Origin: Escherichia coli
Lineage (GTDB): Bacteria; Pseudomonadota; Gammaproteobacteria; Enterobacterales; Enterobacteriaceae
DNA: 64,000 bases
NCBI RefSeq assembly: GCF_022846255.1
Contig: NZ_AP025682.1
Strand: one strand, 5' to 3'
This document shows positions 7,430 to 24,498 of the stretch, piece by piece; the stretch's first letter is position 1; every line of letters begins with the position of its first letter. Position numbers and translations under genes: made by a program. The notes under the pieces are model-generated. The model searched no databases, was not told where the DNA came from, and was given only the letters and a program-made list of their open reading frames with translations.

Positions 7430-10400
7430 TTATCCAGCGATAATATAACTCCTAAGGTCATTACCCGGGGCAACAGCTCGCGCTCGCGTGTTTGCCAGCA
7501 GTTCAACTTGCTGCGGTACTCGCAGGGAAAAATCAAAGAAGGTATCTTCAATACAGCGCCAGTAGCTAAGCCCCATGTCGAGCAGGACATAATGCTGACT
7601 GCCATCGCTGAAGGTGACTGTCAGTTCTCGTCCATGCTCCGTACTCTGGTTATCCCCCGTTAACCAGCTAATTGCTCCCGGCCACGCTGGCCCCAGATAT
7701 CCTTCTTCAAGTAAAGTGGTCACAACCTGCTGACGATCTTCCTCATTAAGCCACGCGTTATAGAGAGCGTCGTGTTGGCGAGAGTTGTAATCCAATTTTT
7801 TGACGCAAACAGTGAGGCTGGCGCGTTCCGCCATTCCCTGTCCAACCAGCTCGGTTAAGATTTCACCTAACAAACGCGCCGTGAATGGGCTATTAAGATA
7901 ACGATCGCTGTACTCAACATGCGTTATCTCTTTGTGGCGGGTAAATGCCTGCTTCCAGCCAGCGTGCTGTTGCGTGACTAACGACCAGAAACGCGAACCA
8001 AAACCTTCCAGCGGCCCGTCCAGTTGCTCGCAGAGGTTGATGCGCACCGCCCCGGTGGGTAAGGCGGGCAGTAAATCTTCTGCACTTAAGGTCTGACCCG
8101 AGAAGGTTTTTCCGGACGTTCCTTTAAGTGTCACTACTGGTGAGGACGCACTTTGTCCCCATAATTCACCAGGTGCAACGGTAGCGCTGTCGTCTGCGGC
8201 CCACTGTTGGCTTTGCCCTTCGCGAGTCACCTGCGCAAGCCAGCGTCCCTTTCCTTGCATGAGTTGCGCAGTGGCAATGGATTTCACTTGTAAGCGTCCT
8301 CCCGGCATCGCCGCCAACGCGGAAAGCTGATGTCTGGAGCTATCTGTTAAGTTTGCCAACGGCGTGGCCACCAGCAACTCAACATGCCCACCGGAGGAGG
8401 CAAACTGGAGCAACTCTTTAAATAATGGCCATTGGGCAAAATCCCACTGTTCCTGCGGCCCCGCAAGAACCAGCGAGCAGGAGTCATAAATCTCGCTGTT
8501 CAGGCATTGCGCAATACGTAAACTCAGCGGGTTAGTTTCAACCCGGCTACCATCGCCGAAGTACTGATATTCTGGCGCGAGGTTAAGTCGCTGCAACCGT
8601 ACATTGGTAAGCAGGGTTAATGCATGGTGACGATCTAATCTGTTGACATAATGCTGACTGTCGTAGCTGAGCAAGCAGTGGTGACAGAATTTATCGCAAC
8701 TGCAATCGAGCAATTTTCTGGCGTAATTAAAGACATCAGCCCAATGGTCGATCAATTGCACTGCATAACCTGCACCACCCGCATTATTGTCGTAAATGAA
8801 GATGGAATATCCGGTATAGCCATTGATATCGCGCGCTTGCTGCGTCGTCACGCCCAGCTCAGTATTTTCGATACCCAATTTATGCGCTAACCCTTCACGC
8901 AAAGCGACCGCAAGGGATCGCGCGGCAACCTCATCACGGATCAACAGGCCATTATCATCATTGAGTTGCAGCTCAACCATATCTGTACGACTGCTATACC
9001 CCAACCAAAGATCTTTATGCACATGACCGTGGCACAATTTATTGCTCCCCTGACGATCGTTACTGCCCCCTCGCAACAGGTAATGCGTATTTTCCCTCTC
9101 TGGGTTCTTAAGATTTTCAGGGGTACGCTGGGGTTGATTTTGAGATTCTGCCCGACCACATGAGAGGCAAATTGCGTAGCCGTGCCCAAATTCCCCTTCA
9201 CTGAAGTGGAACAATTCCCCACTATGGCTAAAACGGTAACGTCCTAACCCAGCATCGGGTAAAGAAACCCACACCGAAGACGGTACAAGAACACGTGGAT
9301 CTTTCCAGGGAAGTTGTGCAGGCATGGATACATCATTATGCGCCTGATAACGGATATCTGTCGCAAAACCAACAGGCTGTAAATAACGCTTCACATCAAG
9401 TTGCTGTATATCCGCTTTGCAGTGACTACATTCGACAGGACGGGTAGTACTGGTTGCCCCCGCACCACATTTACGACAATGCCAGAACCACGGAATATGA
9501 TGATCGCCTGACAGCTCCTGCCCGCTGGCAAGTACCTTGCCAAGCATAATGCCCGAGGAACGATATACTTTTCCGCCCAATACCACATCTGCACCTGGAG
9601 CATACTCGCGTAATGCTGTAGGCAAATCACGGCTGGGCAATTTTTCAATACGACGAGAAAAGCTTTCTCCCCCTTCATTAGGGTCAGCCTGAGTAGCTTT
9701 TATTGCGCGACGTTTTTCCAGCTCATCTGCCGTCAGATAATTGAAATTGACGACGCCAACCGGGAAACCATGCCCCGGCAGGAACGCTTCACTAATGAGT
9801 TTAGAAAACAGATATGCACCGCGATAATCACGAAGCTGATAAGCGATGGCTTTACCTGCTGGCGTTTCTTCCCACGCGCTGTTATCCGCCTTCAACGCTT
9901 CGATATTTTCCAACAGTATCGCAAGTTGGCTTCTCCAGCGGATATCAACCTGCTGCATCATTGCTTGTGTGCGGGTCAAGAGCTGGGTTGCCGTCAATGA
10001 CATCAGGACGGTTCCCTGAGTAAGGCGTTTAAGTTTATCCGCCAGCTGATCGGCCTGGTTATTTAACCAATGGAGAAAACGAAGACACTGGCTCTCATCA
10101 CCTTCAAAGAACCATTTGCAACTCAGTTTTGTCGCATCAGGAACTTCAGCTCGTAAAAACAGACCTAAAACCAGGGCATTAACATGTCGTTGAACAATAC
10201 TGCTGCTCCCAAAACGAACCCGTGGCGCACTGGCAGTAGTGTTGAACGCCCAGAGGGGGGCTTTGAATACCTCCATTCCATGCGCCGTGTTTTTACATAA
10301 CGTAATGGCAGCAGATGCACTCTCTCCACGTCGACCCGCGCGGCCTGCACGCTGCAAATAATTTGCCGGAGCTGGAGGAACGTTGTTCATTGCCACCAAA

Positions 10401-13400
10401 CTCATACCACCAATGTCCACCCCCATCTCCATGGTCGTGGAGCAGTTCAGCACATTAACTTTGCCTGACTTAAATTGTTTTTCATTAAACTGGTTCTGCT
10501 CAGGCGTTCTCTGCGCAGAGTGTTCCTCCAGACGATACCAGCTATCTTTCAGGGCCAGTCGGTCGCTGCGAGTAGACCATAATCCTTCCTCGCGGGCATG
10601 TTGAATCAGCGCATTACTTTCCAGCCACTCCAGACGTTCTTCTCGGGCGATTTCTCCACCACCAGACAAACGCCAGTGACGTACAGGAAGCTCAGGCATT
10701 TCAATCAACACTGCTTTTTCAGGTGCAATTTCTTTGCTACCCGGCAAATACGGAGAGTATCCCAGTAACGTGACGTCTAACGCACGTCGAGTATAGGGGC
10801 AACGCCACACTTGCTTTGGACTGTAAAATTCAGCTTGTTGTTTAATATCCAGCTGATAACCCGACTCAAACTGACGTAAGCAGGGTCGAATTGCATCCCA
10901 GACCTCAATCATTAAGTGGTTAACTAACGATTTCCAGTGAGCCTGCTCAGGTTGTATTGCCGGAAAGACTGCAATTAATAGCTTAATGACCCGGTTATAA
11001 TGGCGATCGCGTATTTGTGGCCAAAGTTGATCACGTTTCTGCCCTTTGTTTTTTTTATCTGGACCCTGGAGCATTTTTACCGGGAAACGAGCCCCCATCC
11101 AGCGAGGGTATTGCTCGTTTTCGTAAAAAACGGCACTGTTTTCACGTATAAAGAAATCAAGAGTAATCTTCAATAAATTACGCCATTCCGCTAATTGCTT
11201 ATCGGGATCGGGTAATAATGTCTTCCAGTCCTGCGGGCAGGTTGTAACTTTATCAATAAATGGATAGTGAATGGCTACCAGACCCAGACTTTCGAGGGTC
11301 CAGGCATTTTTAGGGCGGCGACCAAACTCACTGTATAAACAAAAATCTGCAAACTGTTGTTTAGTAAGATCAAGCCCAGACAATTCTTTAAAACTGCCTC
11401 TCATTCTATCGGCAAGGTCCACACTGCCAACCAGCTGTTCAGACAGTGTTTGCCATGACATGGTTTTCTTCTGCTGATTGCCAGAGTTAGCCTGGAGTAT
11501 TTGCATCGCTTCAGCATGATCCGGGCTTAAGGAACTCACCATCGGCTCGATAATTTTAAGTGCCTGAATGTCCGCCGGGCTAAGCTCTTCATTAGCAACC
11601 ATCGCTTTTTTCAGCGCGTCAATAGAGTTTTTTAAAGGAAGGATAGAAAACTGGGTAATAAAACTCTCTAACAATGCGCAGTGTGCCGGGCTGAGCTTTG
11701 CTGATGGCTCATTAATATTGGCCAACTCCTGGTAACAAAGAGCTCGCAACGTCGCTTTATCGGCATCCTGCTGTAAGCGGGCAGAAATGCGGGCAGTGCC
11801 CTGACGTGAATCCGTAAAGGTGAGCAGACGTCGACCATTAAACGGTCCTAACTGCTCTTCTCTTGTCTGCGGTAATGGTGAAAACTCCAGCAGAGTAGGA
11901 ATAATTTCATTTAAAAAAAAGGGCGCGCCAAGTCGAAGCGGACGGAATAAAGGATTATTTTTTCGTTGGGTGTCACCACAGCAAACACAAGCAAAGGAAT
12001 TATTACGTCCCTCACCTCGAGATTCCGGTCTTAACAGGTTTATTTCATAGTGCTTTTGCGCTTCACTATCAATTTTCCCCGCCGTCGTTTCTTCCAGAGA
12101 AATGATATATTTTTCACCATCGATCGCAATCAGACGATCAAATTGAGAGTTATTGTCTAATTCGTCGTTGTCTTCATCTTCAGAATAAACATCTACATCA
12201 AGAGCAAATTCATCCACTTCGGCAGCGGCGGGTTGCGCTACCAACCAGTTCGTTCCATCACCGCGCACCTCCTCTTTGGCAGACAAATAAGCTGAACCAC
12301 ACCCGGAGCAACGTAAAACTTCAAATACCGGCGCACCACAGTCACAATATTGGCGCTGCTCAAACCATACCTGACCAAATGGCCAGTCACTCTGATTTAA
12401 TTCATGCGCTTTATGTGAGCATTGTTTGTTTGAACATGCCCATAGACCCGCCAGTGTTCTGATAAACCCATGCATACGTAATGGCGTAAAAGCCAGTTCA
12501 CCTTCTCGCGATCTCGCCATTAGGTCGAGGAGTTGCAGTAACTCACGGTGATTAATATCTGGCCAGGTTCTTCTGGCAACATTGAGCAACTCACTCAAAC
12601 GTACTGCCTGCCGTCCGGGATGAGTTAACGCCTGACGCAATTGCTGGGCCACACGGTAATGACAAAGCTGTTGGTAAAGATCCTGAGGGCTCAAAGATTT
12701 AAGAGAAGTTAAAGATGTGGGATATTCATGACGAATCAGCGACTCCGATACCCGCGGTATTTGTCGATAGCCGCGAACCACTTTGACATCACGTTCTGTA
12801 ACGCCCGCAAGATCAGCGACAAATTTAGCAAGCTCCTTATTACCTTCAGGAGAGTCTTCACCAATAGTGGCAGAGGTCGCGATAATCTGCACAGGTTTAT
12901 CTGTGCCAGGTCCAACATTGAAAGCCTGCATAACACGACGTAAAAGCAGCGCTAACTCAGCAGCCTGAGAACCAATATAACTATGGGCTTCATCCAGGAC
13001 GATATACTTTAACATCCCCTGAGACTTTTCGATGATTGGGGCATCTTTACGACGAATCAGCATATATTCCAGCATGGTGGTATTCGTCACCATGATGGAA
13101 GGTGGTGCTTCGTAAATGGCTTCCCGACTCAAAGCTTGTTCAGGTACTTTCAACTGATCTTCCTGAACTTCGTATTTGGTATGCCGGGTTTCGCCATTAT
13201 ATAGCGCGAAGCGTATTTTCCCCTTAAATCCGCGCGTCCATTCGCGAAGCCGCTCCTGTTGGCTGTTAATTAATGCATTTAACGGATACAAGAAAATAGC
13301 TTGTGTCCCTGTTAGTGACTGACGGGTCGATTTTTGCTGACGAATAAGATCTTCCAGAACCGGTACCATAAAGCATTCTGTTTTCCCGGATCCCGTACCG

Positions 13401-13753
13401 CTGCTCACTAACAAGGATTTTTTGTCTTCCAGAATCGTTCGCCACGCCGTAAGTTGATGACGAAATGGCACCGGCGCTTTGCTCAATGCATCAACCAGCG
13501 GGCTGGAAATTAGCTTGTCCCGCAAATCCTCCATTGTTTCATCCGCAGGCATCCAGCCGAACGTGCTTTCGAATACCGGGTCTGCAAGCAGTGACCCCTC
13601 CTGACCGGGAGGCTGGAAATATTGTGATTCCAGATAATGAGTCAACGACTTGCTCCGCAATGCCAACTGACTTACCACCGACCTCACCGCGCGCTGATGA
13701 AGCTGATTTAGAAGTGGCGCATAATGCAGTTGCTGAACGTCCATCAATGACAT
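7430..13753 (-). CDS. druE: Giant DEAH-box helicase with multiple Cys4 zinc-ribbon clusters (DUF1998-like); DruE-like
   Basis: 2107-aa ORF; Walker A SSGTGSGKTE, DEAH box (VLDEAH), helicase motif VI QRAGRAGRRG about 1000 residues downstream; CxxC...CxxC clusters (CSNKQC...CDCG...CSGCG; HCRKCG...CSHCK; CLSCG; CSCDKFCHHC). Size and domain content match the hallmark Druantia helicase; DrmA/DrmB-type fusion not excluded. Confidence 0.55.
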   Translation of the reverse strand: MSLMDVQQLHYAPLLNQLHQRAVRSVVSQLALRSKSLTHYLESQYFQPPGQEGSLLADPVFESTFGWMPADETMEDLRDKLISSPLVDALSKAPVPFRHQLTAWRTILEDKKSLLVSSGTGSGKTECFMVPVLEDLIRQQKSTRQSLTGTQAIFLYPLNALINSQQERLREWTRGFKGKIRFALYNGETRHTKYEVQEDQLKVPEQALSREAIYEAPPSIMVTNTTMLEYMLIRRKDAPIIEKSQGMLKYIVLDEAHSYIGSQAAELALLLRRVMQAFNVGPGTDKPVQIIATSATIGEDSPEGNKELAKFVADLAGVTERDVKVVRGYRQIPRVSESLIRHEYPTSLTSLKSLSPQDLYQQLCHYRVAQQLRQALTHPGRQAVRLSELLNVARRTWPDINHRELLQLLDLMARSREGELAFTPLRMHGFIRTLAGLWACSNKQCSHKAHELNQSDWPFGQVWFEQRQYCDCGAPVFEVLRCSGCGSAYLSAKEEVRGDGTNWLVAQPAAAEVDEFALDVDVYSEDEDNDELDNNSQFDRLIAIDGEKYIISLEETTAGKIDSEAQKHYEINLLRPESRGEGRNNSFACVCCGDTQRKNNPLFRPLRLGAPFFLNEIIPTLLEFSPLPQTREEQLGPFNGRRLLTFTDSRQGTARISARLQQDADKATLRALCYQELANINEPSAKLSPAHCALLESFITQFSILPLKNSIDALKKAMVANEELSPADIQALKIIEPMVSSLSPDHAEAMQILQANSGNQQKKTMSWQTLSEQLVGSVDLADRMRGSFKELSGLDLTKQQFADFCLYSEFGRRPKNAWTLESLGLVAIHYPFIDKVTTCPQDWKTLLPDPDKQLAEWRNLLKITLDFFIRENSAVFYENEQYPRWMGARFPVKMLQGPDKKNKGQKRDQLWPQIRDRHYNRVIKLLIAVFPAIQPEQAHWKSLVNHLMIEVWDAIRPCLRQFESGYQLDIKQQAEFYSPKQVWRCPYTRRALDVTLLGYSPYLPGSKEIAPEKAVLIEMPELPVRHWRLSGGGEIAREERLEWLESNALIQHAREEGLWSTRSDRLALKDSWYRLEEHSAQRTPEQNQFNEKQFKSGKVNVLNCSTTMEMGVDIGGMSLVAMNNVPPAPANYLQRAGRAGRRGESASAAITLCKNTAHGMEVFKAPLWAFNTTASAPRVRFGSSSIVQRHVNALVLGLFLRAEVPDATKLSCKWFFEGDESQCLRFLHWLNNQADQLADKLKRLTQGTVLMSLTATQLLTRTQAMMQQVDIRWRSQLAILLENIEALKADNSAWEETPAGKAIAYQLRDYRGAYLFSKLISEAFLPGHGFPVGVVNFNYLTADELEKRRAIKATQADPNEGGESFSRRIEKLPSRDLPTALREYAPGADVVLGGKVYRSSGIMLGKVLASGQELSGDHHIPWFWHCRKCGAGATSTTRPVECSHCKADIQQLDVKRYLQPVGFATDIRYQAHNDVSMPAQLPWKDPRVLVPSSVWVSLPDAGLGRYRFSHSGELFHFSEGEFGHGYAICLSCGRAESQNQPQRTPENLKNPERENTHYLLRGGSNDRQGSNKLCHGHVHKDLWLGYSSRTDMVELQLNDDNGLLIRDEVAARSLAVALREGLAHKLGIENTELGVTTQQARDINGYTGYSIFIYDNNAGGAGYAVQLIDHWADVFNYARKLLDCSCDKFCHHCLLSYDSQHYVNRLDRHHALTLLTNVRLQRLNLAPEYQYFGDGSRVETNPLSLRIAQCLNSEIYDSCSLVLAGPQEQWDFAQWPLFKELLQFASSGGHVELLVATPLANLTDSSRHQLSALAAMPGGRLQVKSIATAQLMQGKGRWLAQVTREGQSQQWAADDSATVAPGELWGQSASSPVVTLKGTSGKTFSGQTLSAEDLLPALPTGAVRINLCEQLDGPLEGFGSRFWSLVTQQHAGWKQAFTRHKEITHVEYSDRYLNSPFTARLLGEILTELVGQGMAERASLTVCVKKLDYNSRQHDALYNAWLNEEDRQQVVTTLLEEGYLGPAWPGAISWLTGDNQSTEHGRELTVTFSDGSQHYVLLDMGLSYWRCIEDTFFDFSLRVPQQVELLANTRARAVAPGNDLRSYIIAG

Positions 13754-16700
13754 ACTCCTGCTTGTTCAAAATAATATTGATAGATTACCCCTAATTGCTG
13801 CGGGGCTTGCTGATAGTGGAATTCAAAAAGCGCAGACAGTTGATGTATCAAGTTATTATCTTTTTGGGTTAACAGCGCTGCGACTAACATCAAATTAAAA
13901 CGTTTTTCAAGCCGTGAGTGATATTTATCTTCAATCCAAAGCTTATTAAAAACAGATTTTAACTCTGGAGTAATAGCACTAGACCAAAGTTCTTTAGGGA
14001 AGATACTGATACGCCCAAAGCTGTCGGGGTTCCTTAATAGCATCTGTTTAGCTTCATTAAACTGCTCACGACTAACAGTTGGCAAGACATTACAACCGGC
14101 TGGTAGGAGTTCGCCATATGTAAGTAACATATTCGCAATGGGAGCCAGACGACGATCGATATGTGCACGATGGTTCATAAAAGCAATAAAGGGTTGCAAT
14201 ATATGTAATGCTAATGTTTTATCGTTAATCTGTTTTTCCAGATAAGCCCAACACTTTTGAAAAACATCTTTCCAGATTGAAACGGGAATCCATCCCCATG
14301 AAAAGGGTAATTCTTCCTGTATATCATAAATCGTATCGCTATCACCAGAAAGACATGATGATATTAACAACTGAACAACTACGCGGTAATTACTCGAAAT
14401 ACCTCTGAACAAATCCAGATCCAGCAAGGATAAGCCATTATTCATTTTGTATTTCTTAATATACTCCGTTAATAAACAGCAATAATTTTGCAAAGGATTG
14501 TTATCTATTTCAAAAATTAGCTCATTAAAATATTTTTTTCGCTGTTCGGAATCCGCTTCGCATAGAGCATTAAGTAATAAATCATTTGTCTGTAATACAG
14601 GTAGCCCCCATTTAATTACTGGTGCAATGCGAGCTGTACCATCAAGTTTCCCCACAATTAACCATGGGCTATCCTGAACATTCAGAGCTGAAAGATCATA
14701 AGCAAATTCATCTTTTTTTAGCAACGATATGTGTAAGCCAGGATCCTTAAGAGAAATAGCATCAACAACCAGCTCGTCTATTCTATTTGCAGGAAAAACA
14801 ACAGAATTTTTTATATCAACCAGTAACCCTTGATCGTGTTCAATAAAACTACCATCGTAGCGTTTAATACTGAGTGTTGCTTTATCCTTTCCAAATCTGT
14901 CAGAGTAAAAATCAACACATAATGTACTATTGCTGTTCCATGCACATGCCAGCATAGCATTTAGCAAATTATAGTTCTCATAAAGTGAAATTTGTTTTAA
15001 TTTGTCATTGCATCCTGATAAAAGAGGAAGGTCGGCATGTAAATAACGGAATTTTTCAGCTACTGGATTTTCATCCAACAACTCGATATTAAGATATCCT
15101 CTTCCAGCACAAGATATGGTTAACAACTCAGCATCTATTCCATGCAAATGCGCTATAGATGCCACACCATCAAAATGAACAGAACCATCATGAGTTACAA
15201 ATCGGCCACCGCTAACCGGCTTAGGTAATAATAGTTTAAGATTAGAACCATCTTTCCAGGAGACCCGTAAATCAACGGTATTTTCCAGCATCTCCGATGA
15301 ATTATAATAAATAGCACACTCGTTTTGTGAATAATCGGACTTAAGTGTTACTTTTTCATTATTTGAATATTTGTCAATTCTAGTATCCGTTATACCAGAA
15401 AGCATTATGATGCCTTGCTGAGCACTCTCAGGTATAATATTAATATCGAAGTCTGTTGGTAAAACTACAACTTTACCGCTAAATAAAACCTCATCATTAA
15501 CTATTCGTCTGACTTCTATCTGTCCTTTTGGCATTTCTGATGCGACAGAATACCAGGCATTGTTACCTGAACGAATGGAACGCCAAAAAAGTTCTTTCTC
15601 CGGTACAATGCCATATTGCAGATCCTTTTTCCAACCGATCTTCGGCCAGGCTCGATGGACAGGATAATCCGATTTAACCAGTTCAACTTCTGTCGATTTA
15701 ATATAATATTCAATCGCAGAATCATAAAGTTGCTGGGTGCGAATTGTACAAACTGCACCATCATGTAAAACAACGCTAAATACTCCACTTATTTTAGTTA
15801 AGCTGCGTTCACTGTTTTTCAGCAACCTTGGGATATCAAACTCACCTTCTCCACTAATATCTAAATGGCTATTTTTCGGTAGCGAAATAAACAGAGCATT
15901 TAGCCTGGAACTCACAGACCCCATACCGACAAGTTTTAGCTGCGATTCACTCTCATTCATCGCTTCAAAAACCCAGGGGAGTTCTTCAGTAAGTTCATAA
16001 CCGCCTTTTGGAATTGTGTGGCCTAACAGAATTGGACCTTCATGAAGCGACAACGAGATTTCGGCCATTGCATCTGCACCAGAGAGCTTTTGCATCGCAA
16101 TAGGTAATAACTCGACCCGCCAATCTTGCTGCTCATAACGGCTTAGCATTGCCAACCTTGCCCCGCCATTTCTCCATTTTCCTGAAATGATGAGTCGGGT
16201 CTGCTCCGGCTGAATATTGCATTCAAACAAAGAGGTTAACTGTTCTGTACGCATTATGGCCGGGAATCGGAACCGGGCATCACAATACCAACTGTCATCA
16301 ACATCGACCCAGATTCTTTCAACCTGAAGACTACTTGCACTGCGTATTTCAGAAGATTGAGAAAGTAATCGCCTTACAATCTCTGCAGCATTCGCTTCGG
16401 GGAGAACGAGTGGAAGTTGAAGATGCCAGTCTGGAGAGAGCTTACGTAATGCAGAAACGGGATCACTGCTTTGAGGTGGATGCTCACTAAGTAATCGGCA
16501 GAGAGTCTCGCAGAATTCACCGGCTATTTCATAGACCAGTTCGTTTTGCATTGTGACAGGAATCGTATCGCCTAATTCTTGTGCAATTTTAGCGGCAGGA
16601 TATTGAGATGCTTGCCCACGAAGCGCCTGATATATCCTTCTGAAATAGGTAATCAAATAACCGCTCTCATTTTCAATCATGCGGATAGGTAAACCACCTT

Positions 16701-17103
16701 CACAAGCCAGTGTATGCAGATAACCCGAAGCTTGCCCCAGGTTTCTTATCTTTCTTTTCCAGTAGCGAATGCCATCATTAACCAGCTTCTGTTGATGAAC
16801 ATACGGAACTTTCCAGTCAATAGAATCTAAAATTGTGTCCCATTTAGGGTGTCCGACCGTATGAGTCCGGCGGATAAACTCTGCGGCATATATGCTAAAT
16901 AGAACATCGCTATAGGAAATGAATATCGTTCTTGGATAACTACGGGGGGCATATGTACGCAGTAGTTCTGCCAAACTTTCGTACTCTGTATCAGTACAAC
17001 GGTAAGCATATAACGCCCGTCCATCAGCTCCGGATAATGAACGGCGACTAAAAAACATGTTAAGCCATTGCAAAAGTGGGTTAACTGGAGTTTTCACAAG
17101 CAA
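13744..17103 (-). CDS. druH: 1119-aa protein without recognisable motifs, translationally coupled to the giant helicase (DruH-like position)
   Basis: Long uninterrupted ORF; stop overlaps helicase start by 10 nt; no catalytic motif recognised by eye; position and size fit the DruH partner of type III Druantia, but the assignment is by context only. Confidence 0.45.
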   Translation of the reverse strand: MLVKTPVNPLLQWLNMFFSRRSLSGADGRALYAYRCTDTEYESLAELLRTYAPRSYPRTIFISYSDVLFSIYAAEFIRRTHTVGHPKWDTILDSIDWKVPYVHQQKLVNDGIRYWKRKIRNLGQASGYLHTLACEGGLPIRMIENESGYLITYFRRIYQALRGQASQYPAAKIAQELGDTIPVTMQNELVYEIAGEFCETLCRLLSEHPPQSSDPVSALRKLSPDWHLQLPLVLPEANAAEIVRRLLSQSSEIRSASSLQVERIWVDVDDSWYCDARFRFPAIMRTEQLTSLFECNIQPEQTRLIISGKWRNGGARLAMLSRYEQQDWRVELLPIAMQKLSGADAMAEISLSLHEGPILLGHTIPKGGYELTEELPWVFEAMNESESQLKLVGMGSVSSRLNALFISLPKNSHLDISGEGEFDIPRLLKNSERSLTKISGVFSVVLHDGAVCTIRTQQLYDSAIEYYIKSTEVELVKSDYPVHRAWPKIGWKKDLQYGIVPEKELFWRSIRSGNNAWYSVASEMPKGQIEVRRIVNDEVLFSGKVVVLPTDFDINIIPESAQQGIIMLSGITDTRIDKYSNNEKVTLKSDYSQNECAIYYNSSEMLENTVDLRVSWKDGSNLKLLLPKPVSGGRFVTHDGSVHFDGVASIAHLHGIDAELLTISCAGRGYLNIELLDENPVAEKFRYLHADLPLLSGCNDKLKQISLYENYNLLNAMLACAWNSNSTLCVDFYSDRFGKDKATLSIKRYDGSFIEHDQGLLVDIKNSVVFPANRIDELVVDAISLKDPGLHISLLKKDEFAYDLSALNVQDSPWLIVGKLDGTARIAPVIKWGLPVLQTNDLLLNALCEADSEQRKKYFNELIFEIDNNPLQNYCCLLTEYIKKYKMNNGLSLLDLDLFRGISSNYRVVVQLLISSCLSGDSDTIYDIQEELPFSWGWIPVSIWKDVFQKCWAYLEKQINDKTLALHILQPFIAFMNHRAHIDRRLAPIANMLLTYGELLPAGCNVLPTVSREQFNEAKQMLLRNPDSFGRISIFPKELWSSAITPELKSVFNKLWIEDKYHSRLEKRFNLMLVAALLTQKDNNLIHQLSALFEFHYQQAPQQLGVIYQYYFEQAGVCH

Positions 17104-17314
17104 CCTGCCTTCCTTTGATACAATTCGTAACAGGTTACTATCATCATAAAAAAGCTCAACCCGATGAACTCGCTAAAAATGAGACAAATCATTTATATCT
17201 CGAAAAAACTTGTTACAATCATGAGCGCTACACCGAACTTAACCATATAAATTATGTGTGTTTTGTTTATTTTTTAAACAATTACAACTATCCATTATTT
17301 ACACAGGTATCAAA

Positions 17315-18967
17315 ATGTTAGCGCAGCTTTTTGAGCAGTTGTTTCAATCGATAGACTCTACACTGATCACCAATATTTTCATCTGGGCTGTTATATTCGT
17401 ATTTTTATCAGCGTGGTGGTGTGACAAAAAAAATATACATAGTAAGTTTAGAGAATATGCTCCAACCTTAATGGGGGCATTAGGTATTCTGGGTACTTTC
17501 ATTGGTATTATTATTGGGTTACTCAATTTTAATACTGAAAGTATTGATACCAGCATCCCCGTATTATTAGGCGGCCTAAAAACAGCATTCATTACAAGCA
17601 TTGTAGGTATGTTTTTTGCCATTTTATTTAATGGAATGGATGCTTTCTTTTTTGCCAATAAACGAAGTGCGTTAGCAGAAAATAACCCTGAATCTGTTAC
17701 ACCTGAACATATCTATCATGAATTAAAAGAGCAGAACCAGACTCTGACTAAATTAGTCTCGGGTATTAACGGTGATAGTGAAGGTTCTCTTATTGCTCAA
17801 ATAAAATTACTACGTACTGAGATTAGCGATTCCTCGCAGGCACAATTAGCTAATCACACTCATTTCAGTAATAAGCTTTGGGAACAACTTGAACAATTTG
17901 CAGATCTAATGGCAAAAGGTGCTACAGAACAAATTATTGATGCTTTACGACAAGTCATTATTGATTTTAATGAAAATTTAACTGAACAGTTTGGTGAAAA
18001 CTTTAAAGCACTTGATGCCTCTGTAAAAAAACTTGTTGAGTGGCAGGAAAATTATAAAACGCAAGTTGAGCTGATGTCAGAACAATATCAACAAAGTGTC
18101 GAGTCTCTGGTTGAAACAAAAACTGCGGTTGCCGGGATTTGGGAAGAATGTAAAGAAATTCCTCTGGCTATGTCTGAACTGCGTGAAGTGCTTCAGGTGA
18201 ACCAACATCAAATCAGCGAACTCTCCCGCCATTTAGAAACCTTTGTCGCCATCCGCGATAAAGCTACAACCGTATTACCTGAAATACAGAACAAAATGGC
18301 TGAAGTGGGTGAACTGCTGAAATCCGGAGCTGCAAATGTTAGTGCATCTCTTGAGCAAACCAGCCAGCAAATACTTCTTAATGCAGATTCAATGCGCGTG
18401 GCCCTGGATGAAGGTACCGAAGGATTCAGACAATCGGTTACCCAAACACAACAAGCATTTGCCTCGATGGCACATGATGTCAGCAATTCCTCCGAAACTC
18501 TAACCAGCACGTTAGGTGAAACAATTACTGAAATGAAACAAAGTGGTGAAGAATTCCTGAAGTCACTAGAGTCGCACTCGAAAGAATTGCATAGAAATAT
18601 GGAACAAAATACGACTAATGTAATTGATATGTTCAGTAAGACTGGTGAAAAGATTAACCATCAACTATCCAGTAATGCCGATAATATGTTTGATTCAATC
18701 CAGACATCATTTGATAAGGCAAGTGCAGGGCTGACTTCTCAAGTCAGAGAATCAATTGAAAAATTTGCTCTATCCATCAACGAGCAGTTACATGCTTTTG
18801 AGCAAGCAACTGAACGTGAGATGAACCGTGAAATGCAATCATTAGGTAATGCTCTGCTTTCAATCAGCAAAGGTTTTGTCGGTAACTATGAAAAACTTAT
18901 TAAAGATTACCAAATAATTATGGGGCAGTTACAAGCATTAATTTCTGCTAATAAACATCGAGGGTAA
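17315..18967 (+). CDS. zorA: ZorA-like MotA/TolQ/ExbB-family membrane protein with long coiled-coil tail
   Basis: Hydrophobic N-terminal helices (LITNIFIWAVIFVFLSAWW; LMGALGILGTFIGIIIGL; FITSIVGMFFAILF) followed by ~350 aa of heptad-rich sequence. Likely start at ATG 17315 (ORF track starts at 17258); first gene of a three-gene operon. Confidence 0.7.
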   Translation: MLAQLFEQLFQSIDSTLITNIFIWAVIFVFLSAWWCDKKNIHSKFREYAPTLMGALGILGTFIGIIIGLLNFNTESIDTSIPVLLGGLKTAFITSIVGMFFAILFNGMDAFFFANKRSALAENNPESVTPEHIYHELKEQNQTLTKLVSGINGDSEGSLIAQIKLLRTEISDSSQAQLANHTHFSNKLWEQLEQFADLMAKGATEQIIDALRQVIIDFNENLTEQFGENFKALDASVKKLVEWQENYKTQVELMSEQYQQSVESLVETKTAVAGIWEECKEIPLAMSELREVLQVNQHQISELSRHLETFVAIRDKATTVLPEIQNKMAEVGELLKSGAANVSASLEQTSQQILLNADSMRVALDEGTEGFRQSVTQTQQAFASMAHDVSNSSETLTSTLGETITEMKQSGEEFLKSLESHSKELHRNMEQNTTNVIDMFSKTGEKINHQLSSNADNMFDSIQTSFDKASAGLTSQVRESIEKFALSINEQLHAFEQATEREMNREMQSLGNALLSISKGFVGNYEKLIKDYQIIMGQLQALISANKHRG

Positions 18968-18973
18968 TCGATC

Positions 18974-19681
18974 ATGGATAAGATTATAGGGAAACAATTA
19001 CCTAAAAAAGATCAAGATAATGAACACTGGGTATCCATGTCAGACCTAATGGCAGGGCTGATGATGGTTTTTATGTTCATATCTATTGCTTATATGCACT
19101 ACGTACGTATTGAAAAAGAAAAAATTAAAGAAGTTGCCGTAGCCTACGAGAATGCTCAGTTACAGCTTTATAATGCTCTGGATATTGAGTTTGCAAAGGA
19201 TTTGCAAGACTGGGATGCAGAGATCGATAAGCAGACTCTGGAGGTTCGATTTAAATCACCGGATGTTTTATTTGGCTTAGGAAGCATAGAGCTTAAACCA
19301 AAGTTTAAACTCATTCTTGACGACTTCTTTCCTCGCTACCTAAAAGTTCTTGATAATTATCAAGAACATATTACTGAAGTCCGCATTGAAGGTCACACAA
19401 GTACTGACTGGACTGGAACAACGAATCCTGATATTGCTTATTTTAATAATATGGCACTATCACAAGGTCGTACACGTGCAGTATTACAATACGTTTATGA
19501 TATAAAAAATATCGCGACACACCAACAATGGGTTAAAAGTAAATTTGCCGCAGTAGGTTATTCATCTGCACATCCCATTCTTGATAAAACCGGCAAGGAG
19601 GATCCTAATCGCTCTCGTCGTGTCACCTTCAAAGTTGTAACAAATGCCGAGTTGCAGATTAGAAAGATTATTCAGGAGTAA
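18974..19681 (+). CDS. zorB: ZorB-like MotB/OmpA-family protein (single TM plus peptidoglycan-binding domain)
   Basis: N-terminal TM helix (LMAGLMMVFMFISIAYM) and OmpA_C-like motifs (IEGHTSTD, NMALSQGRTRAVLQY, NRSRRVTFKV); 7-nt gap after zorA. Confidence 0.7.
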   Translation: MDKIIGKQLPKKDQDNEHWVSMSDLMAGLMMVFMFISIAYMHYVRIEKEKIKEVAVAYENAQLQLYNALDIEFAKDLQDWDAEIDKQTLEVRFKSPDVLFGLGSIELKPKFKLILDDFFPRYLKVLDNYQEHITEVRIEGHTSTDWTGTTNPDIAYFNNMALSQGRTRAVLQYVYDIKNIATHQQWVKSKFAAVGYSSAHPILDKTGKEDPNRSRRVTFKVVTNAELQIRKIIQE

Positions 19682-19684
19682 GAG

Positions 19685-20788
19685 ATGAAATTATCTATCG
19701 ACATTTCAGAACTTATTCAATTAGGGAAGAAAATGTTACCAGAAGGAGTCGATTTTTTTCTGGATGAATCCCCTATTGACTTTGATCCTATAGATATTGA
19801 GTTATCCACGGGTAAAGAAGTTAGTATCGAAGATCTTGACCCTGGTAGCGGGCTTATCTCTTATCATGGCCGCCAGGTTCTTTTATATATTAGGGACCAT
19901 TCAGGGCGTTATGATGCGGCTATCATCGATGGCGAAAAAGGAAAACGTTTTCATATTGCCTGGTGCAGAACTCTTGATGAAATGCGCCATAAAAATCGAT
20001 TTGAAAGGTATCATGCAACTAACCGCATAGATGGTTTATTCGAAATTGATGATGGTTCAGGTCGGAGCCAGGATGTTGATTTACGGGTATGTATGAATTG
20101 TCTGGAACGACTTAATTACAAAGGAAGTATTGATAAACAAAGGAAAAGAGAGATTTTTAAATCATTCTCATTAAATGAGTTTTTTTCAGATTATAGTACC
20201 TGTTTTCGTCATATGCCTAAGGGTATCTATGACAAAACAAATAGTGGGTATGTCGAAAACTGGAAAGATATATCAAAATCAATACGAGAAAAGGCCAAGT
20301 ATACTTGTAATGATTGTGGTGTGAATTTATCAACCGCCAAAAACTTGTGCCATGTCCATCATAAAAATGGCATCAAATATGATAATCACCATGAAAACCT
20401 TCTTGTTCTGTGTAAGGATTGCCATCGTAAACAGCCCCTCCATGAAGGTATATTCGTTACCCAAGCTGAGATGGCTATCATTCAACGTTTACGTTCCCAA
20501 CAAGGGTTATTAAAAGCCGAATCCTGGAATGAAATATATGACCTGACTGATCCATCAGTACATGGTGATATTAATATGATGCAACATAAAGGCTTTCAAC
20601 CTCCTGTTCCTGGGTTAGATCTTCAAAACTCAGAACATGAAATTATTGCAACCGTAGAAGCAGCATGGCCAGGCCTTAAAATTGCAGTTAACCTTACTCC
20701 CGCCGAAGTCGAAGGATGGAGAATATATACCGTGGGTGAGCTGGTTAAAGAAATACAAACAGGAGCCTTTACGTCAGCAACGTTGTAA
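19685..20788 (+). CDS. zorE: ZorE-like HNH endonuclease
   Basis: HNH motif CNDCG...CHVHHKNG...NHHENLLVLCKDCH; immediately follows zorB (4-nt gap); MotA/MotB/HNH trio matches Zorya type II gene content. Confidence 0.7.
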   Translation: MKLSIDISELIQLGKKMLPEGVDFFLDESPIDFDPIDIELSTGKEVSIEDLDPGSGLISYHGRQVLLYIRDHSGRYDAAIIDGEKGKRFHIAWCRTLDEMRHKNRFERYHATNRIDGLFEIDDGSGRSQDVDLRVCMNCLERLNYKGSIDKQRKREIFKSFSLNEFFSDYSTCFRHMPKGIYDKTNSGYVENWKDISKSIREKAKYTCNDCGVNLSTAKNLCHVHHKNGIKYDNHHENLLVLCKDCHRKQPLHEGIFVTQAEMAIIQRLRSQQGLLKAESWNEIYDLTDPSVHGDINMMQHKGFQPPVPGLDLQNSEHEIIATVEAAWPGLKIAVNLTPAEVEGWRIYTVGELVKEIQTGAFTSATL

Positions 20789-20824: not shown

Positions 20825-20998
20825 AGATAAATATAATTTTCCTGATTTGTGACTCAAATTACAAAAGTCGTTTATGGCATAACTTGTCTGTTTTTTTTGG
20901 TGTAATAGGTATAAAGGCATATGCTATGGTTAGCCTTATATTTAAAACTTTCCTCATACGGGTGAAGGTTAAAGATTGGTAGATAGGTTACAGTCACA

Positions 20999-21496
20999 AT
21001 GAATAAAGCAATAACGGTGCTTGCTATAATGATGGCTTCATTTTCCGTAAATGCGTATGTATTACCGGAAACGCCTGTGCCATTTAAAAGTGGTACCGGA
21101 GCAATTGATAACAACACTGTCTACATTGGTTTAGGTAGCGCAGGTACGGCATGGTACAAGCTGGAGAAACAGACCAAAGATAAAAAATGGACAGCGTTAG
21201 CTGCATTTCCTGGTGGACCGAGAGATCAAGCAACTTCTGCATTTATTGATGGCAATCTGTATGTGTTTGACGGCATTGGCAAAAACAGTGAGGGCTTGAC
21301 TCAGGTATTTAATGACGTTCACAAATACAACCTCAAAACCAATAGCTGGGTTAAATTGATGTCGCACGCGCCGATGGGCATGGCGGGTCATGTGACATTT
21401 GTACACAACGGCAAGGCTTATGTTACTGGCGGTGTTAACCAGAATATCTTCAATGGCTATTTTGAAGATCTTAACGAAGCTGGAAAAGATTCAACA
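20999..21496 (+). pseudogene. nanM: nanM (yjhT) N-acetylneuraminate mutarotase, 3-prime truncated (first ~166 codons only)
   Basis: Translation matches my recollection of E. coli NanM from the signal peptide through ...EDLNEAGKDST, then diverges into an unrelated 36-codon tail before a stop at 21607; full-length NanM is about twice this length. Confidence 0.8.
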
Positions 21497-21614: not shown

Positions 21615-22193
21615 TTAATTTGATTTATTTGCATCCATCAACGCTTTTAACTGCTCCGGCGAAAACGGTGGTTTGCGTCGGTGCAACATCGCATGGCAAT
21701 TAGGGCACACAGGAAGCAAATCATTAACTGGATCCAGCTGGTAATTCTCTTTAATGGCTGAAAGCGGCACCAGGTGATGCACATGGATAAAGCCTTCAGC
21801 GATATCACCATAGATCTTCACCAGATCAACGCCGCATACGTTGCACTGGCATCCATGATGTTCGACCGCTTTATCTCGGGCCTTTTTATCGCGTTCATAG
21901 CGGTTTACTGTCACCTTTATCGCCGCACTTTCAACGTATGTCTCCTGCGACGGCAACTCATCCGGGAACAGAACGTCGGCTATGGGAGCCGCAGCGGCTT
22001 TATCCAGATGAATATGAAATCCCTGCTCTATGAGTAGCTTGAGACATTTAGATTTTATTCCGCCGGTGAAATCCGCAGGGGTAAATTGCGTCCCCGTCAT
22101 CAATGTCGCTGCGATGCCAGCAATCGCCTTCGAGGGGTAACGTCGGCCATGAATACAACCGCGCAGGCTGGAACTGATGAGTTTCTCCCGCAT
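21615..22193 (-). CDS. HNH endonuclease (192 aa)
   Basis: C-terminal HNH signature HHGCQCNVCG...HVHHLVPLS...NDLLPVCPNCH; N-terminal ~100 aa unassigned. Confidence 0.65.
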   Translation of the reverse strand: MREKLISSSLRGCIHGRRYPSKAIAGIAATLMTGTQFTPADFTGGIKSKCLKLLIEQGFHIHLDKAAAAPIADVLFPDELPSQETYVESAAIKVTVNRYERDKKARDKAVEHHGCQCNVCGVDLVKIYGDIAEGFIHVHHLVPLSAIKENYQLDPVNDLLPVCPNCHAMLHRRKPPFSPEQLKALMDANKSN

Positions 22194-22333
22194 CCCATAA
22201 ATGGATAGCTTCGATGATATACCGCCGCGGAAGATGATCGGGGAGTTTATTCATGGAGAATGTCCTTATACGTTCTCAGAACAGGCAGCAAAAAAACAAA
22301 TGAGATCAAGGTAATATATCTTCACTTGCAGGC

Positions 22334-23263
22334 TTGAACAGCAGAAAATTTGCGAGCATGATCGCAATTATTTCACTGCCAGGGATATCAATGGCTTCCA
22401 GTAAATCGCTACAGCAGGCAATTGCCAATATAAAAATCTGGCACAAGGGTGAACAGCGCGCGCCGCATAAGCCATTGTTATTGCTATATATATTAGCGGG
22501 ATACCTGAATGGACATCCGCGCCTTTTCGATTATGGCTCGGAAATCTACGAACCTCTGCACAGTTTACTGGAACGTTTTGGGCCACAGCGTTCACAGTAC
22601 CGACCTGATATGCCGTTCTGGCGATTACAAGGCGACGGATTCTGGCAATTACACAATGCCGAGCTTTGCTCAACAGCAGGGAGCAGCCGACAACCACCAG
22701 TGAAGGAACTGACTGAATACCACGTTGCAGGCGGTTTCGATGAACAGCACTACGCCCTGGTAACTGGCAATAAAAAACTCATCAATACTCTGGCGCAACA
22801 GATACTCGAAGCGCACTTCACCGAGAGTATTCAGGAAGAAATTGCTGACGAGCTGGGTTTTGATCTCCAGCAAATCCGTAAACAGCGCGACCCGTTATTT
22901 CGCAAAAATGTATTACGCGCTTATAACTACCAGTGCGCGATATGTGGCTTTAATATGCGCCACGACGACACCACCGTCGCGCTGGAAGCGGCGCATATAA
23001 AATGGAAACAGCACGGCGGTCCTTGTGAAATTCCTAATGGCCTGGCGCTTTGCGCAATTCACCATAAAGCCTTTGATAAAGGATCGATTGGCCTGGATGA
23101 AAATATGCGGGTACTGGTATCAGATGCGGTAAACGGCGGAGGGATCGTTGAGAAACTATTCTGGGATTTTGACGGGAAAACTATTGCTTTGCCGCAGGTA
23201 CGTAAAAATTACCCTTATGAGGGATTTGTGGAGTGGCATCGAAAAGAGGTTTTTAGGGGGTGA
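22334..23263 (+). CDS. Two-domain HNH endonuclease (309 aa), N-terminal putative DNA-recognition domain; candidate modification-dependent restriction enzyme
   Basis: C-terminal HNH signature YQCAICGF...AAHIKWKQHGG...NGLALCAIHHKAFD; ~200-aa N-terminal domain (HKPLLLLYILAGY...) unassigned; divergent from the 192-aa HNH gene. Confidence 0.6.
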   Translation: MNSRKFASMIAIISLPGISMASSKSLQQAIANIKIWHKGEQRAPHKPLLLLYILAGYLNGHPRLFDYGSEIYEPLHSLLERFGPQRSQYRPDMPFWRLQGDGFWQLHNAELCSTAGSSRQPPVKELTEYHVAGGFDEQHYALVTGNKKLINTLAQQILEAHFTESIQEEIADELGFDLQQIRKQRDPLFRKNVLRAYNYQCAICGFNMRHDDTTVALEAAHIKWKQHGGPCEIPNGLALCAIHHKAFDKGSIGLDENMRVLVSDAVNGGGIVEKLFWDFDGKTIALPQVRKNYPYEGFVEWHRKEVFRG

Positions 23264-23373
23264 GGTTGATAATACCGCGCCCCTATAATCTTGCCATCTC
23301 GTGCATTGAGATGTTAAAAGCTACAAATGTTCTCCCTATTTTTCAATGTAGACATTTATAGCAATATCAAAAT

Positions 23374-24372: not shown

Positions 24373-24498
24373 GTTTATCTTCCTTTTTTAACTGATTTTA
24401 CAGGGACTTTAACACAGTAAAAATTTTATTTCCTGAGCTGTAATCGATTAAGCTGATGCATTCAATGGGAATGATATCACCTAAAAAGCACATTATGA

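What the first reader, a model, noticed from the sequence alone, without database searches (positions are those of the whole stretch)
13744..17103. 1119-aa partner protein with no recognisable motif and an apparent compositional break
The protein has no catalytic signature that I can recognise. By eye the 3-prime ~1.7 kb of the gene (approx 13.8-15.5 kb) is markedly more AT-rich than its 5-prime part, hinting at a mosaic origin or domain swap. The stop overlaps the helicase start by 10 nt, implying obligate co-expression.
Basis: seen in the sequence. Interest (0 to 1): 0.4.

Follow-up and report, generated by a model that had tools for sequence, protein, structure and literature searches.

The report
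DruH gene with real GC step
This gene encodes DruH, the already characterised partner of the DruE helicase in the type III Druantia anti-phage system; its internal drop in GC content is real, but it marks a shift from a conserved part to a faster-evolving, recombining part of one colinear gene, not a fusion of foreign pieces.

Summary
The ORF at 13744-17103 (minus strand) is druH of a type III Druantia system. It sits between druE and a divergent Zorya II operon in an E. coli-type defence island. It matches DruH/YjiT models end to end. A solved DruH chain (PDB 9tud) matches it almost full-length, and all 25 published functional residues are present at the same numbering.

The compositional break is real. 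GC falls from 0.453 to 0.368 at about codon 400, window position about 15.9 kb (support interval 15.47-16.02 kb). None of 500 codon shuffles matched it, and it is the strongest break among the 10 large ORFs of the window that were tested.

A mosaic origin or domain swap is not supported. Homologues are colinear. Alleles only 63% identical have exactly 1119 codons and no indels. Trees for the N and C parts agree, and the break lies inside the Ig-like array rather than at a main domain boundary.

Two things are supported. The C-terminal two-thirds evolve faster in every comparison, with Ig6 at dN/dS about 0.56. Alleles are also patchworks of blocks exchanged by homologous recombination.

The GC landscape is specific to the Zorya II-linked enterobacterial clade and is kept at the same positions across it; its cause is unresolved. 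Verdict: a known gene with a minor new descriptive detail.

The parts
13744..17103 (-). druH CDS (1119 codons plus stop), type III Druantia partner protein, YjiT / STY4851 / ECs_5259 family
   Evidence: ORF listing. PADLOC DruH3 full-length match, 2538 bits. NCBIfam NF038336. PDB 9tud_A 'DruH', 1119 aa, 2528 bits over residues 3-1119. RefSeq annotates the same coordinates in 510 E. coli genomes.
15903..17103 (-). GC-richer 5' segment, codons 1-400. GC 0.453, GC3 about 0.385-0.388, four-fold GC 0.40. Encodes the alpha-helical N-terminal domain and the first Ig-like domain.
   Evidence: Change-point analysis, four-fold sites, AF2 secondary structure. 17 of the 22 invariant alignment columns lie here.
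13744..15902 (-). AT-rich 3' segment, codons 401-1119. GC 0.368, GC3 about 0.287-0.290, four-fold GC 0.30. Encodes Ig2-Ig6 and the alpha-helical C-terminal domain.
   Evidence: Amino-acid shift: GARP falls from 25.8% to 18.4% and FYMINK rises from 21.5% to 29.2%. This part is consistently the more divergent one in homologues.
15474..16019 (-). Support interval of the GC change point (codons 361-543), best point about 15903
   Evidence: Likelihood profile, LLR within 2 of the maximum.
16339..17103 (-). N-terminal alpha-helical domain, residues about 1-255. Carries the invariant residues Y32, Y34, R35, E75, G111, L129, A133, G136-P139 and the published loss- and gain-of-function surface at 63-137.
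   Evidence: AF2 model, alignment A1 invariants, residue check. Literature: 10.64898/2026.05.12.724681 and 10.64898/2026.05.13.724313.
14590..16338 (-). Beta-rich array of six Ig-like or Fn3-like domains, residues about 256-838. The GC step falls inside it.
   Evidence: AF2 secondary structure. Most of the weak Foldseek hits are to tandem Ig-like proteins. Cryo-EM descriptions.
14590..14859 (-). Ig6, codons 749-838. The fastest-evolving segment: dN/dS 0.56 between E. coli and Hafnia, against 0.05-0.12 in the other domains. The wider 749-900 stretch is the least conserved part in every pairwise comparison.
13747..14589 (-). C-terminal alpha-helical domain, residues 839-1119. Together with Ig5 (Y670, N672, Y733) it forms the published ssDNA/ATP pocket (R1031, H1062, R1064, K1067). 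In P. aeruginosa it is the published DruE-binding surface.
   Evidence: AF2 model. All pocket residues present. Literature.
13742..13759 (-). druH-druE junction: AGGAG (13759-13755), first druE ATG (13753-13751), druH stop TGA (13746-13744), second druE ATG (13744-13742)
   Evidence: Sequence read, RefSeq start choice, 2108-aa solved DruE chain.
7430..13753 (-). druE, the helicase-nuclease partner: DEAD/DEAH and Helicase_C domains, an MZB (DUF1998) domain at 1615-1694, and a C-terminal region
   Evidence: PADLOC DruE3 2179 bits, Pfam, PDB 9tu7.
17104..17257 (.). Spacer between the divergent zorA and druH genes (presumed promoter region). Invariant among the E. coli alleles except for a single SNP in L001, and swapped together with the druH 5' end among type-B alleles.

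Best explanation
The gene is druH of a type III Druantia system, translationally coupled to druE.

Mechanism, taken from the 2026 literature on near-identical E. coli proteins and on a P. aeruginosa orthologue. DruH has an alpha-helical N-terminal domain, six Ig-like domains and an alpha-helical C-terminal domain. It binds ssDNA in a pocket between Ig5 and the C-terminal domain, and ATP competes for that pocket. Two of the four studies also find it to be a nuclease: one a 3'-5' exonuclease with its site in the conserved N-terminal domain, the other a dimer-dependent nuclease. On forked or ssDNA-containing phage replication intermediates, its C-terminal domain docks onto DruE. This converts the autoinhibited DruE dimer into an active DruE-DruH helicase-nuclease that degrades phage DNA.

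The compositional break, inferred here. It is an evolutionary-regime boundary inside one vertically coherent, colinear gene, not a junction between pieces of different origin. Upstream of about codon 400 lie the N-terminal domain and Ig1. They are densely constrained, with three times more invariant positions, and they keep a GC-richer, GARP-rich coding sequence. Downstream lie Ig2-Ig6 and the C-terminal domain. They evolve faster, Ig6 under strongly relaxed or diversifying selection. They are the main arena of block-wise homologous recombination between alleles, and in this Zorya II-linked enterobacterial clade they have settled at an AT-rich, FYMINK-rich composition that is kept at the same positions in all alleles.
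For: Identity:
- Full-length DruH and YjiT model matches.
- A solved DruH chain of the same length matches almost full-length.
- All 25 published functional residues are identical at the same numbering.
- druE lies immediately downstream.
- The AF2 model gives alpha 1-255, beta 256-838 and alpha 839-1119, as in the cryo-EM descriptions.

The break is real: LLR 11.5, 0/500 shuffles, and the strongest of the 10 large ORFs tested.

It is not a chimera:
- Homologues are colinear, and there are no indels at 63% identity.
- N and C identities correlate at r = 0.98.
- N and C trees agree on the clade order.
- The same conservation profile along the protein appears in every pair, including pairs outside this clade.

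Differential constraint:
- 17 of 22 invariant columns and 27 of 48 nearly invariant columns lie in the first 400 residues.
- C/N divergence ratios are 1.1-1.5 in all homologues.
- dN/dS by domain is 0.05-0.12, except Ig6 at 0.56.

A maintained positional landscape:
- The step is present in E. coli, Escherichia sp., Hafnia, Yersinia, Serratia and Enterobacter alleles.
- E. coli-type and Yersinia-type alleles are saturated at synonymous sites, pS >= 0.72.
- GC1+2 and GC3 profiles still correlate between them, rho 0.85 and 0.65.
- Alternative recombination-block variants that differ by dS 0.5-1.9 have the same GC at each position.

Allelic recombination blocks.
Against: - The sister clade at 48% identity (L035) is AT-rich along the whole druH (0.417 / 0.414) and shows no step. 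Relaxed constraint plus AT pressure is therefore not a general rule for this family.
- The correlation between GC and family-wide conservation is weak, rho about +0.3, p 0.04-0.08. The conservation drop starts nearer residue 550 than residue 400.
- Protein-level constraint does not explain the difference of about 0.1 at four-fold degenerate sites. That difference is seen in three semi-independent lineages, but each test is only z about 1.4-2.9. At 60-codon resolution the four-fold profile is not conserved.
- Whether the N part rose or the C part fell in GC on the stem of the clade was not determined.
- The biochemical role of DruH is itself contested. It is described as a 3'-5' exonuclease in 10.64898/2026.05.13.724313, as having no nuclease activity in 10.64898/2026.05.12.722862, as a dimer-dependent nuclease and phage sensor in 10.64898/2026.05.12.724681, and as a scaffold in 10.64898/2026.05.13.724758.
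Confidence: 0.6

Rival explanations
1. Ancient homologous replacement. In the ancestor of the Zorya II-linked clade, one part of druH (either codons ~400-1119 or codons 1-400) was replaced by the matching part of a closely related allele that had lived in a host or element of different GC content. The step is the scar of that event.
For: The step is specific to this clade and absent from the 48%, 35% and 33% identity clades and from 20 distant homologues. It is visible at four-fold degenerate sites. druH alleles demonstrably exchange blocks by homologous recombination, and one block edge lies at nt ~1080-1200.
Against: - N and C trees give the same clade order, and N/C identities correlate at r = 0.98, so any donor must have been a very close relative.
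- Synonymous sites are saturated between the E. coli-type and Yersinia-type alleles. A single old compositional scar should have largely decayed by now (inference from a two-state amelioration argument), yet both lineages keep it.
- Block variants of different ancestry have the same positional GC.
Confidence: 0.2
2. Selection on the DNA or mRNA itself. The AT-rich 3' two-thirds is kept AT-rich for a nucleic-acid-level reason. Candidates are H-NS/StpA binding that keeps a costly defence operon at low expression, slow translation that helps the Ig array fold, or internal regulatory signals.
For: The GC landscape is conserved by position across alleles with saturated synonymous sites, including at third positions. 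The adjacent Zorya II genes are similarly AT-rich, at 0.375. This fits the known preference of H-NS for AT-rich, horizontally acquired DNA (established knowledge, not tested here).
Against: - Promoter-like sites are not enriched in the region: 17 found against 12.3 +/- 3.5 expected.
- The apparent internal start at codon 427 (cluster P0014) is only an assembly break at an IS insertion.
- The four-fold profile is not conserved at fine scale.
- Most of the step lies in GC1+2, that is, in amino-acid composition.
- The sister clade lacks the pattern.
Confidence: 0.12
3. The break is chance variation or a by-eye artefact.
For: Within-gene GC wanders in many genes, and several other ORFs in the window show nominal steps of 0.06-0.09.
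Against: 0 of 500 codon shuffles reach the observed likelihood ratio, and those other ORFs are not significant. The same step recurs in independent alleles from five other genera.
Confidence: 0.01

Closest known systems
DruH (YjiT / STY4851 / ECs_5259 family; NCBIfam NF038336; Pfam YjiT_N PF27201 + YjiT_2nd PF27205) of type III Druantia, e.g. E. coli ATCC 8739 / EDL933 Z5897; PDB 9tud
   Same: End-to-end sequence match, the same length, and the same residue numbering for all 25 published functional residues. The fold layout is the same: an alpha N-terminal domain, six Ig-like domains and an alpha C-terminal domain. The operon partner (druE) and the Zorya II / ARMADA II neighbourhood are also the same.
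   Different: Nothing essential. This allele is 97.6-99.9% identical at the DNA level to those in 510 complete E. coli genomes. The GC step and the block-mosaic allele structure are not mentioned in the four mechanistic preprints as far as I read or term-searched them. Term searches in three of them were negative; the search in the fourth failed.
MrfA-MrfB (YprA-family helicase with a partner 3'-5' exonuclease, B. subtilis DNA repair)
   Same: A large DExH/MZB helicase paired with a separately encoded partner. In one study the partner acts on the 3' ends of DNA that the helicase engages (analogy drawn in 10.64898/2026.05.12.722862). DruE carries the MZB domain.
   Different: DruH has no DnaQ-like exonuclease fold or any other known nuclease motif. 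It is built largely of Ig-like domains, and it works in defence rather than repair.
Block-mosaic specificity genes of defence and phage-host interfaces (e.g. type I R-M hsdS target-recognition-domain shuffling, phage tail-fibre mosaics)
   Same: Closely related alleles differ by discrete, highly divergent blocks with sharp edges, embedded in near-identical backbone sequence. The most variable block, Ig6, shows raised dN/dS.
   Different: No evidence here that the blocks change specificity. There are no flanking repeats or dedicated recombinase. Block edges are not fixed at domain boundaries. The neighbouring zorA and, to a lesser degree, druE show similar patchiness. The resemblance is an analogy, not membership.

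Membership tests
DruH of type III Druantia (YjiT family) | Full-length sequence match to DruH / YjiT family models | tested here: met
   PADLOC PDLC00041 covers 3-1119 against 1-1117/1117, 2538 bits. NCBIfam NF038336 scores 970 bits against a cutoff of 150. Homologues carry PF27201 + PF27205.
DruH of type III Druantia (YjiT family) | Encoded immediately upstream of, and co-oriented with, a DruE helicase (DEAD/DEAH + Helicase_C + MZB/DUF1998) | tested here: met
   druE lies at 7430-13753 and overlaps the druH stop. PADLOC DruE3 scores 2179 bits. Pfam finds DEAD, Helicase_C and MZB. The same pairing is seen in all orthologous loci where the flank was available.
DruH of type III Druantia (YjiT family) | Architecture: alpha-helical N-terminal domain, array of Ig-like domains, alpha-helical C-terminal domain | tested here: met
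   AF2 model with mean pLDDT 81: helices in 9-247, strands in 260-831, helices in 842-1118. Most of the weak Foldseek hits are to tandem Ig-like proteins. This agrees with the cryo-EM descriptions.
DruH of type III Druantia (YjiT family) | Published functional residues: the N-terminal surface 63-137, and the ssDNA/ATP pocket Y670 N672 H689 Y733 D735 R1031 H1062 R1064 K1067 | tested here: met
   All 25 residues checked are identical at the published positions.
DruH of type III Druantia (YjiT family) | Confers anti-phage defence together with DruE; ssDNA binding and/or nuclease activity | not testable with these tools
   Shown experimentally for E. coli systems with the same residue numbering, and for P. 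aeruginosa and M. smegmatis systems, in papers read. Nuclease activity is disputed between those studies.
Chimeric / domain-swapped gene (mosaic origin) | Compositional discontinuity within the gene | tested here: met
   GC 0.453 to 0.368 at codon ~400, 0/500 shuffles.
Chimeric / domain-swapped gene (mosaic origin) | The two parts occur with different partners, or are non-colinear, in homologues | tested here: not met
   All 41 full-length homologues are colinear and share the same two domains. There are no indels among 1119-codon alleles at 63% identity.
Chimeric / domain-swapped gene (mosaic origin) | Discordant phylogenies of the two parts at clade level | tested here: not met
   N and C NJ trees give the same clade order. 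N and C identities correlate at r = 0.98 over 703 pairs.
Chimeric / domain-swapped gene (mosaic origin) | Junction coincides with a structural domain boundary | tested here: inconclusive
   The best point, codon 400, lies inside the Ig array and not at the alpha/beta boundaries near 255 and 838. The support interval 361-543 does include a likely Ig1/Ig2 linker near residue 370.
Allele-level mosaicism by homologous recombination | Sharp, statistically supported changes in divergence along pairwise allele comparisons | tested here: met
   O157-type against L004-type alleles: 0.6% divergence up to about codon 776 and 4.4% beyond it (p about 0). Serratia against Enterobacter: 41% in the first 54 codons and 1.3% afterwards. 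The block structure among 8 type-B alleles is shown, and at protein level.

The most novel reading that the evidence does not exclude
The AT-rich portion from Ig2 to the C-terminal domain, and Ig6 in particular, may be a recombining specificity module. Under this reading, blocks exchanged between alleles retune which phage structure or protein DruH senses, or which DruE variant it docks to. This would parallel target-recognition-domain shuffling in type I R-M hsdS genes or tail-fibre mosaics. The GC step would then mark the edge of that exchangeable module.
Probability: 0.2. Interest if true: 0.45.

Novelty: already known. Interest (0 to 1): 0.2.

Why it matters
The entity is known and is under intensive study: five mechanistic studies appeared in 2026, four preprints in May and one journal paper in June, and solved structures exist. 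The finding therefore opens no new system.

The small added value is evolutionary. druH in the Zorya II-linked enterobacterial clade has a positionally conserved two-regime composition. Its alleles are block mosaics, with a hot spot in Ig6.

This matters in practice for the published site-wise positive-selection inference on DruH. FEL and FUBAR assume one tree per alignment, so recombination of this kind can inflate their signals. It also gives natural breakpoints for designing chimeras to test whether DruH is the specificity-determining sensor.

Tried and rejected
- Internal start or split gene. The 693-aa cluster P0014 (563 sequences) begins at residue 427, near the GC step. It turned out to be a contig-end truncation at a multi-copy IS end inserted at codon 413, so it is not an alternative product.
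- Internal promoters in the AT-rich part. These are not enriched: 17 found against 12.3 +/- 3.5 expected.
- Divergent druH alleles in E. coli, such as the K-12 yjiT remnant. A sensitive blastn found only the same 520 records as megablast, so no within-species divergent allele was available for comparison.
- GC tracking family-wide conservation. The correlation is only weak, rho about 0.3, and cannot stand as a sufficient explanation.
- Deep swap of the N or C part. Rejected by congruent trees and the r = 0.98 correlation of distances.
- Foldseek against the PDB. That library (releases up to 2026-04-08) does not yet hold 9tud, so the fold match to the solved DruH could not be scored; only Ig-array hits with low TM-scores were returned.
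- The identity of the IS end was not confirmed. It was absent from the other fetched loci. It is multi-copy in 3094 E. coli genomes, and one hit lies under an IS3-family transposase. The name IS629 is only my recollection.
- A term search in the fourth preprint failed on a term that was too short.
Full report
**What is there**

The ORF at 13744-17103 on the minus strand (1119 aa, TTG start) is followed by a 2107-aa ORF at 7430-13753. It is preceded, divergently, by three ORFs at 17258-20788.

PADLOC profiles identify the five genes as DruH3 (2538 bits, end to end), DruE3, ZorA2, ZorB2 and ZorE2. NCBIfam places the 1119-aa protein in YjiT_fam / STY4851 / ECs_5259. The local Pfam-A copy finds nothing in it, but homologues carry the newer Pfam models YjiT_N and YjiT_2nd.

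A solved chain named DruH (PDB 9tud_A, 1119 aa) matches residues 3-1119 at 2528 bits. DruE matches 9tu7. In the E. coli complete-genome collection, 510 of 5426 genomes hold a full-length copy that is 97.6-100% identical, always annotated as a STY4851/ECs_5259 family protein followed by a DEAD/DEAH helicase.

The neighbourhood is the described Zorya II - Druantia III - ARMADA II island of O-island 172 (10.1101/2025.09.22.677730). Here it is extended by a type III Wadjet system and several nucleases.

**What DruH does (from papers, not tested here)**

Four preprints of May 2026 solved DruH by cryo-EM. [quoted passage not shown] None finds a known catalytic fold. They differ on function:

- Hu et al. 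find an ssDNA-binding pocket between Ig5 and the C-terminal domain (Y670, N672, Y733, R1031, H1062, R1064, K1067). ATP competes for it, and they see no nuclease activity.
- Loeff et al. find a 3'-5' exonuclease in a P. aeruginosa DruH, with essential residues in the N-terminal domain. They also find forked-DNA-dependent assembly of a 1:1 DruE-DruH complex through the DruH C-terminal domain.
- Wu et al. propose a phage sensor with dimer-dependent nuclease activity and an N-terminal regulatory surface at residues 63-137. They note that DruH diverges faster than DruE.
- Himpich et al. see a monomer with no catalytic domain and only indirect interaction with DruE.

All 25 functional residues named for the E. 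coli protein are present in the window protein at the same numbers. My AF2 model (mean pLDDT 81) gives helices up to about residue 250, strands from 260 to 831, and helices from 842 to the end. Its weak Foldseek hits in the PDB are mostly to tandem Ig-like proteins.

**The observation**

The GC step is real. A two-segment likelihood scan puts the change at gene nt 1201 (codon 400, window about 15903), with GC 0.453 before and 0.368 after. No codon shuffle out of 500 reaches the observed likelihood ratio.

The drop is present at positions 1+2 (0.486 to 0.407), at position 3 (0.385 to 0.287) and at four-fold sites (0.402 to 0.299). It is accompanied by a shift in amino-acid use: GARP falls from 25.8% to 18.4% and FYMINK rises from 21.5% to 29.2%.

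Among the ten large ORFs of the window that I tested, druH has the strongest internal step. druE (GC 0.488) is sharply GC-richer than the 3' part of druH, and Zorya II (0.375) is as AT-rich as that part.

The '10-nt overlap' applies to the longest druE ORF. RefSeq and other gene calls use the next ATG, giving a TGATG 1-nt overlap, and the Shine-Dalgarno spacing favours that start. The solved DruE chain is 2108 aa, the length of the long form plus one residue. Both readings imply tight coupling.

**Is it a mosaic or a domain swap?**

At the level of architecture and deep history, no.

- Every full-length homologue recovered is colinear and of similar length.
- Alleles from Hafnia (83% identity) and from Yersinia, Serratia and Enterobacter (63%) have exactly 1119 codons with no indel.
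- The pattern of conservation along the protein is the same in every pairwise comparison, including pairs outside this clade. It is high in 81-180 and 281-540, lower beyond about 560, and lowest in 720-900.
- Identities of the N and C parts correlate at r = 0.98 over 703 pairs.
- NJ trees of the two parts give the same order: (((E. coli + Hafnia, Yersinia-type), 48% group), 35% group), then distant homologues.
- The change point lies within the Ig array, not at either alpha/beta boundary.

**Where the step exists**

Using orthologue DNA from a genome scan and from contig look-ups, the N-minus-C GC difference is +0.06 to +0.084 in Escherichia, Hafnia, Yersinia, Serratia and Enterobacter. It is about zero in the 48% group (0.417 / 0.414), the 35% group, a 33% gammaproteobacterial homologue and 20 distant GC-rich homologues.

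All members of the step-bearing clade whose upstream flank I inspected sit in the same arrangement of Zorya II, druHE and a SNF2 helicase, or, on one short contig, next to Zorya II alone.

Synonymous sites are saturated between the E. coli-type and Yersinia-type alleles (pS >= 0.72), yet both keep the step. GC1+2 and GC3 profiles in 60-codon bins still correlate between them (rho 0.85 and 0.65). Alternative recombination-block variants that differ by dS 0.5-1.9 have the same GC at each position.

I infer that the landscape is a maintained positional property of this clade rather than the fading scar of one import. A simple two-state amelioration argument says such a scar should have largely decayed. 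That is reasoning, not a computed result.

**What correlates with the step**

Constraint does.

- 17 of 22 invariant columns and 27 of 48 nearly invariant columns lie in the first 400 residues.
- The C part is 1.1-1.5 times more divergent than the N part in every homologue.
- dN/dS between E. coli and Hafnia is 0.05-0.12 for the N-terminal domain, Ig1-5 and the C-terminal domain, but 0.56 for Ig6, codons 749-838.

The fit is imperfect. The correlation of GC with family-wide conservation is weak. The conservation drop begins nearer residue 550 than residue 400. The 48% clade is AT-rich throughout, without a step. Protein-level constraint cannot explain the four-fold-site difference. I therefore hold the 'regime boundary' explanation at moderate confidence and list an ancient replacement from a close relative, and selection on the DNA itself, as rivals.

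**A real but different mosaicism**

Closely related alleles differ by sharply bounded blocks.

- Within E. coli, the O157-type and another allele differ by 0.6% up to codon 776 and by 4.4% beyond it (permutation p about 0).
- Serratia and Enterobacter alleles differ by 41% in the first 54 codons and by 1.3% afterwards.
- Among eight Yersinia-type alleles, at least four blocks reassort on a near-identical backbone of nt 330-1080. The blocks lie at about nt 1-330, 1080-1620, 1920-2760 and 2880-3300.

One block edge (nt about 1080-1200) falls in the support interval of the GC step; the others do not. zorA, the zorA-druH spacer and parts of druE show similar patchiness. Nucleotide diversity is 0.099 for druH against 0.059 for druE.

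None of the three preprints I could search mentions mosaicism or GC content. Wu et al. report site-wise positive selection in DruH. Recombination of this kind can confound such tests.

**Verdict**

The finding is a correctly spotted and statistically solid compositional step inside a gene that is already known and structurally characterised. The proposed cause, a mosaic origin or domain swap, is not supported. Novelty is low, and interest is modest.

Noticed in passing
window 4348-7206 (-), 17258-20788 (+), 21615-32371, 35686-39673: The window is a stacked defence island. It holds an ARMADA II-like SNF2 helicase (ArmA, with a methyltransferase upstream), Druantia III, Zorya II, an HNH endonuclease, a phosphorothioate-binding HNH endonuclease and a PDC-S11/PDDEXK nuclease. 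It also holds a type III Wadjet system (JetD 24499-25554, JetC 25567-30003, a likely JetB 30006-30902, JetA 30905-32371). A methyltransferase plus a restriction-like pair sits in DNA of roughly 31-34% GC.
   Followed up: partly
window ~8599 (druE codon ~1718): druE has its own, weaker GC step, 0.477 to 0.535, reached by 11 of 500 shuffles. It lies just after the MZB/DUF1998 domain (residues 1615-1694), where the C-terminal nuclease-like region begins.
   Followed up: no
window ~15866 (druH codon 413); locus L038 1-29: A protein cluster of 563 sequences (P0014) is druH truncated at a contig end. The contig end is the terminus of a multi-copy insertion sequence, present at 11583 places in 3094 E. 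coli genomes. This implies a widespread lineage in which druH is disrupted by an IS close to the GC step. A different IS3 insertion interrupts druH at about nt 492 in strain EC05.
   Followed up: partly
loci L009-L011, L040-L044: druH codons 1-110 plus the zorA-druH spacer (corresponds to window ~16770-17260): In Yersinia-type islands, the 5' end of druH, the divergent promoter spacer and the 3' part of zorA swap together as one highly divergent block. Pairwise divergence in these 300-nt bins reaches about 27-34%, against a few percent in the neighbouring bins. This suggests exchange of regulatory region and N-terminus as a unit.
   Followed up: partly
window 13742-13759: The start of druE is annotated inconsistently. 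The longest ORF (and the length of the solved chain) correspond to the ATG at 13753. RefSeq/PGAP uses the ATG at 13744, which has better Shine-Dalgarno spacing. RefSeq also names DruE a 'motility-regulating DEAH-box RNA helicase' in some records.
   Followed up: partly
window ~20998-21495 (+): A truncated N-acetylneuraminate epimerase (nanM) remnant lies between Zorya II and the HNH genes. It is kept in all E. coli loci inspected. It is probably a scar of the island's insertion or rearrangement.
   Followed up: no
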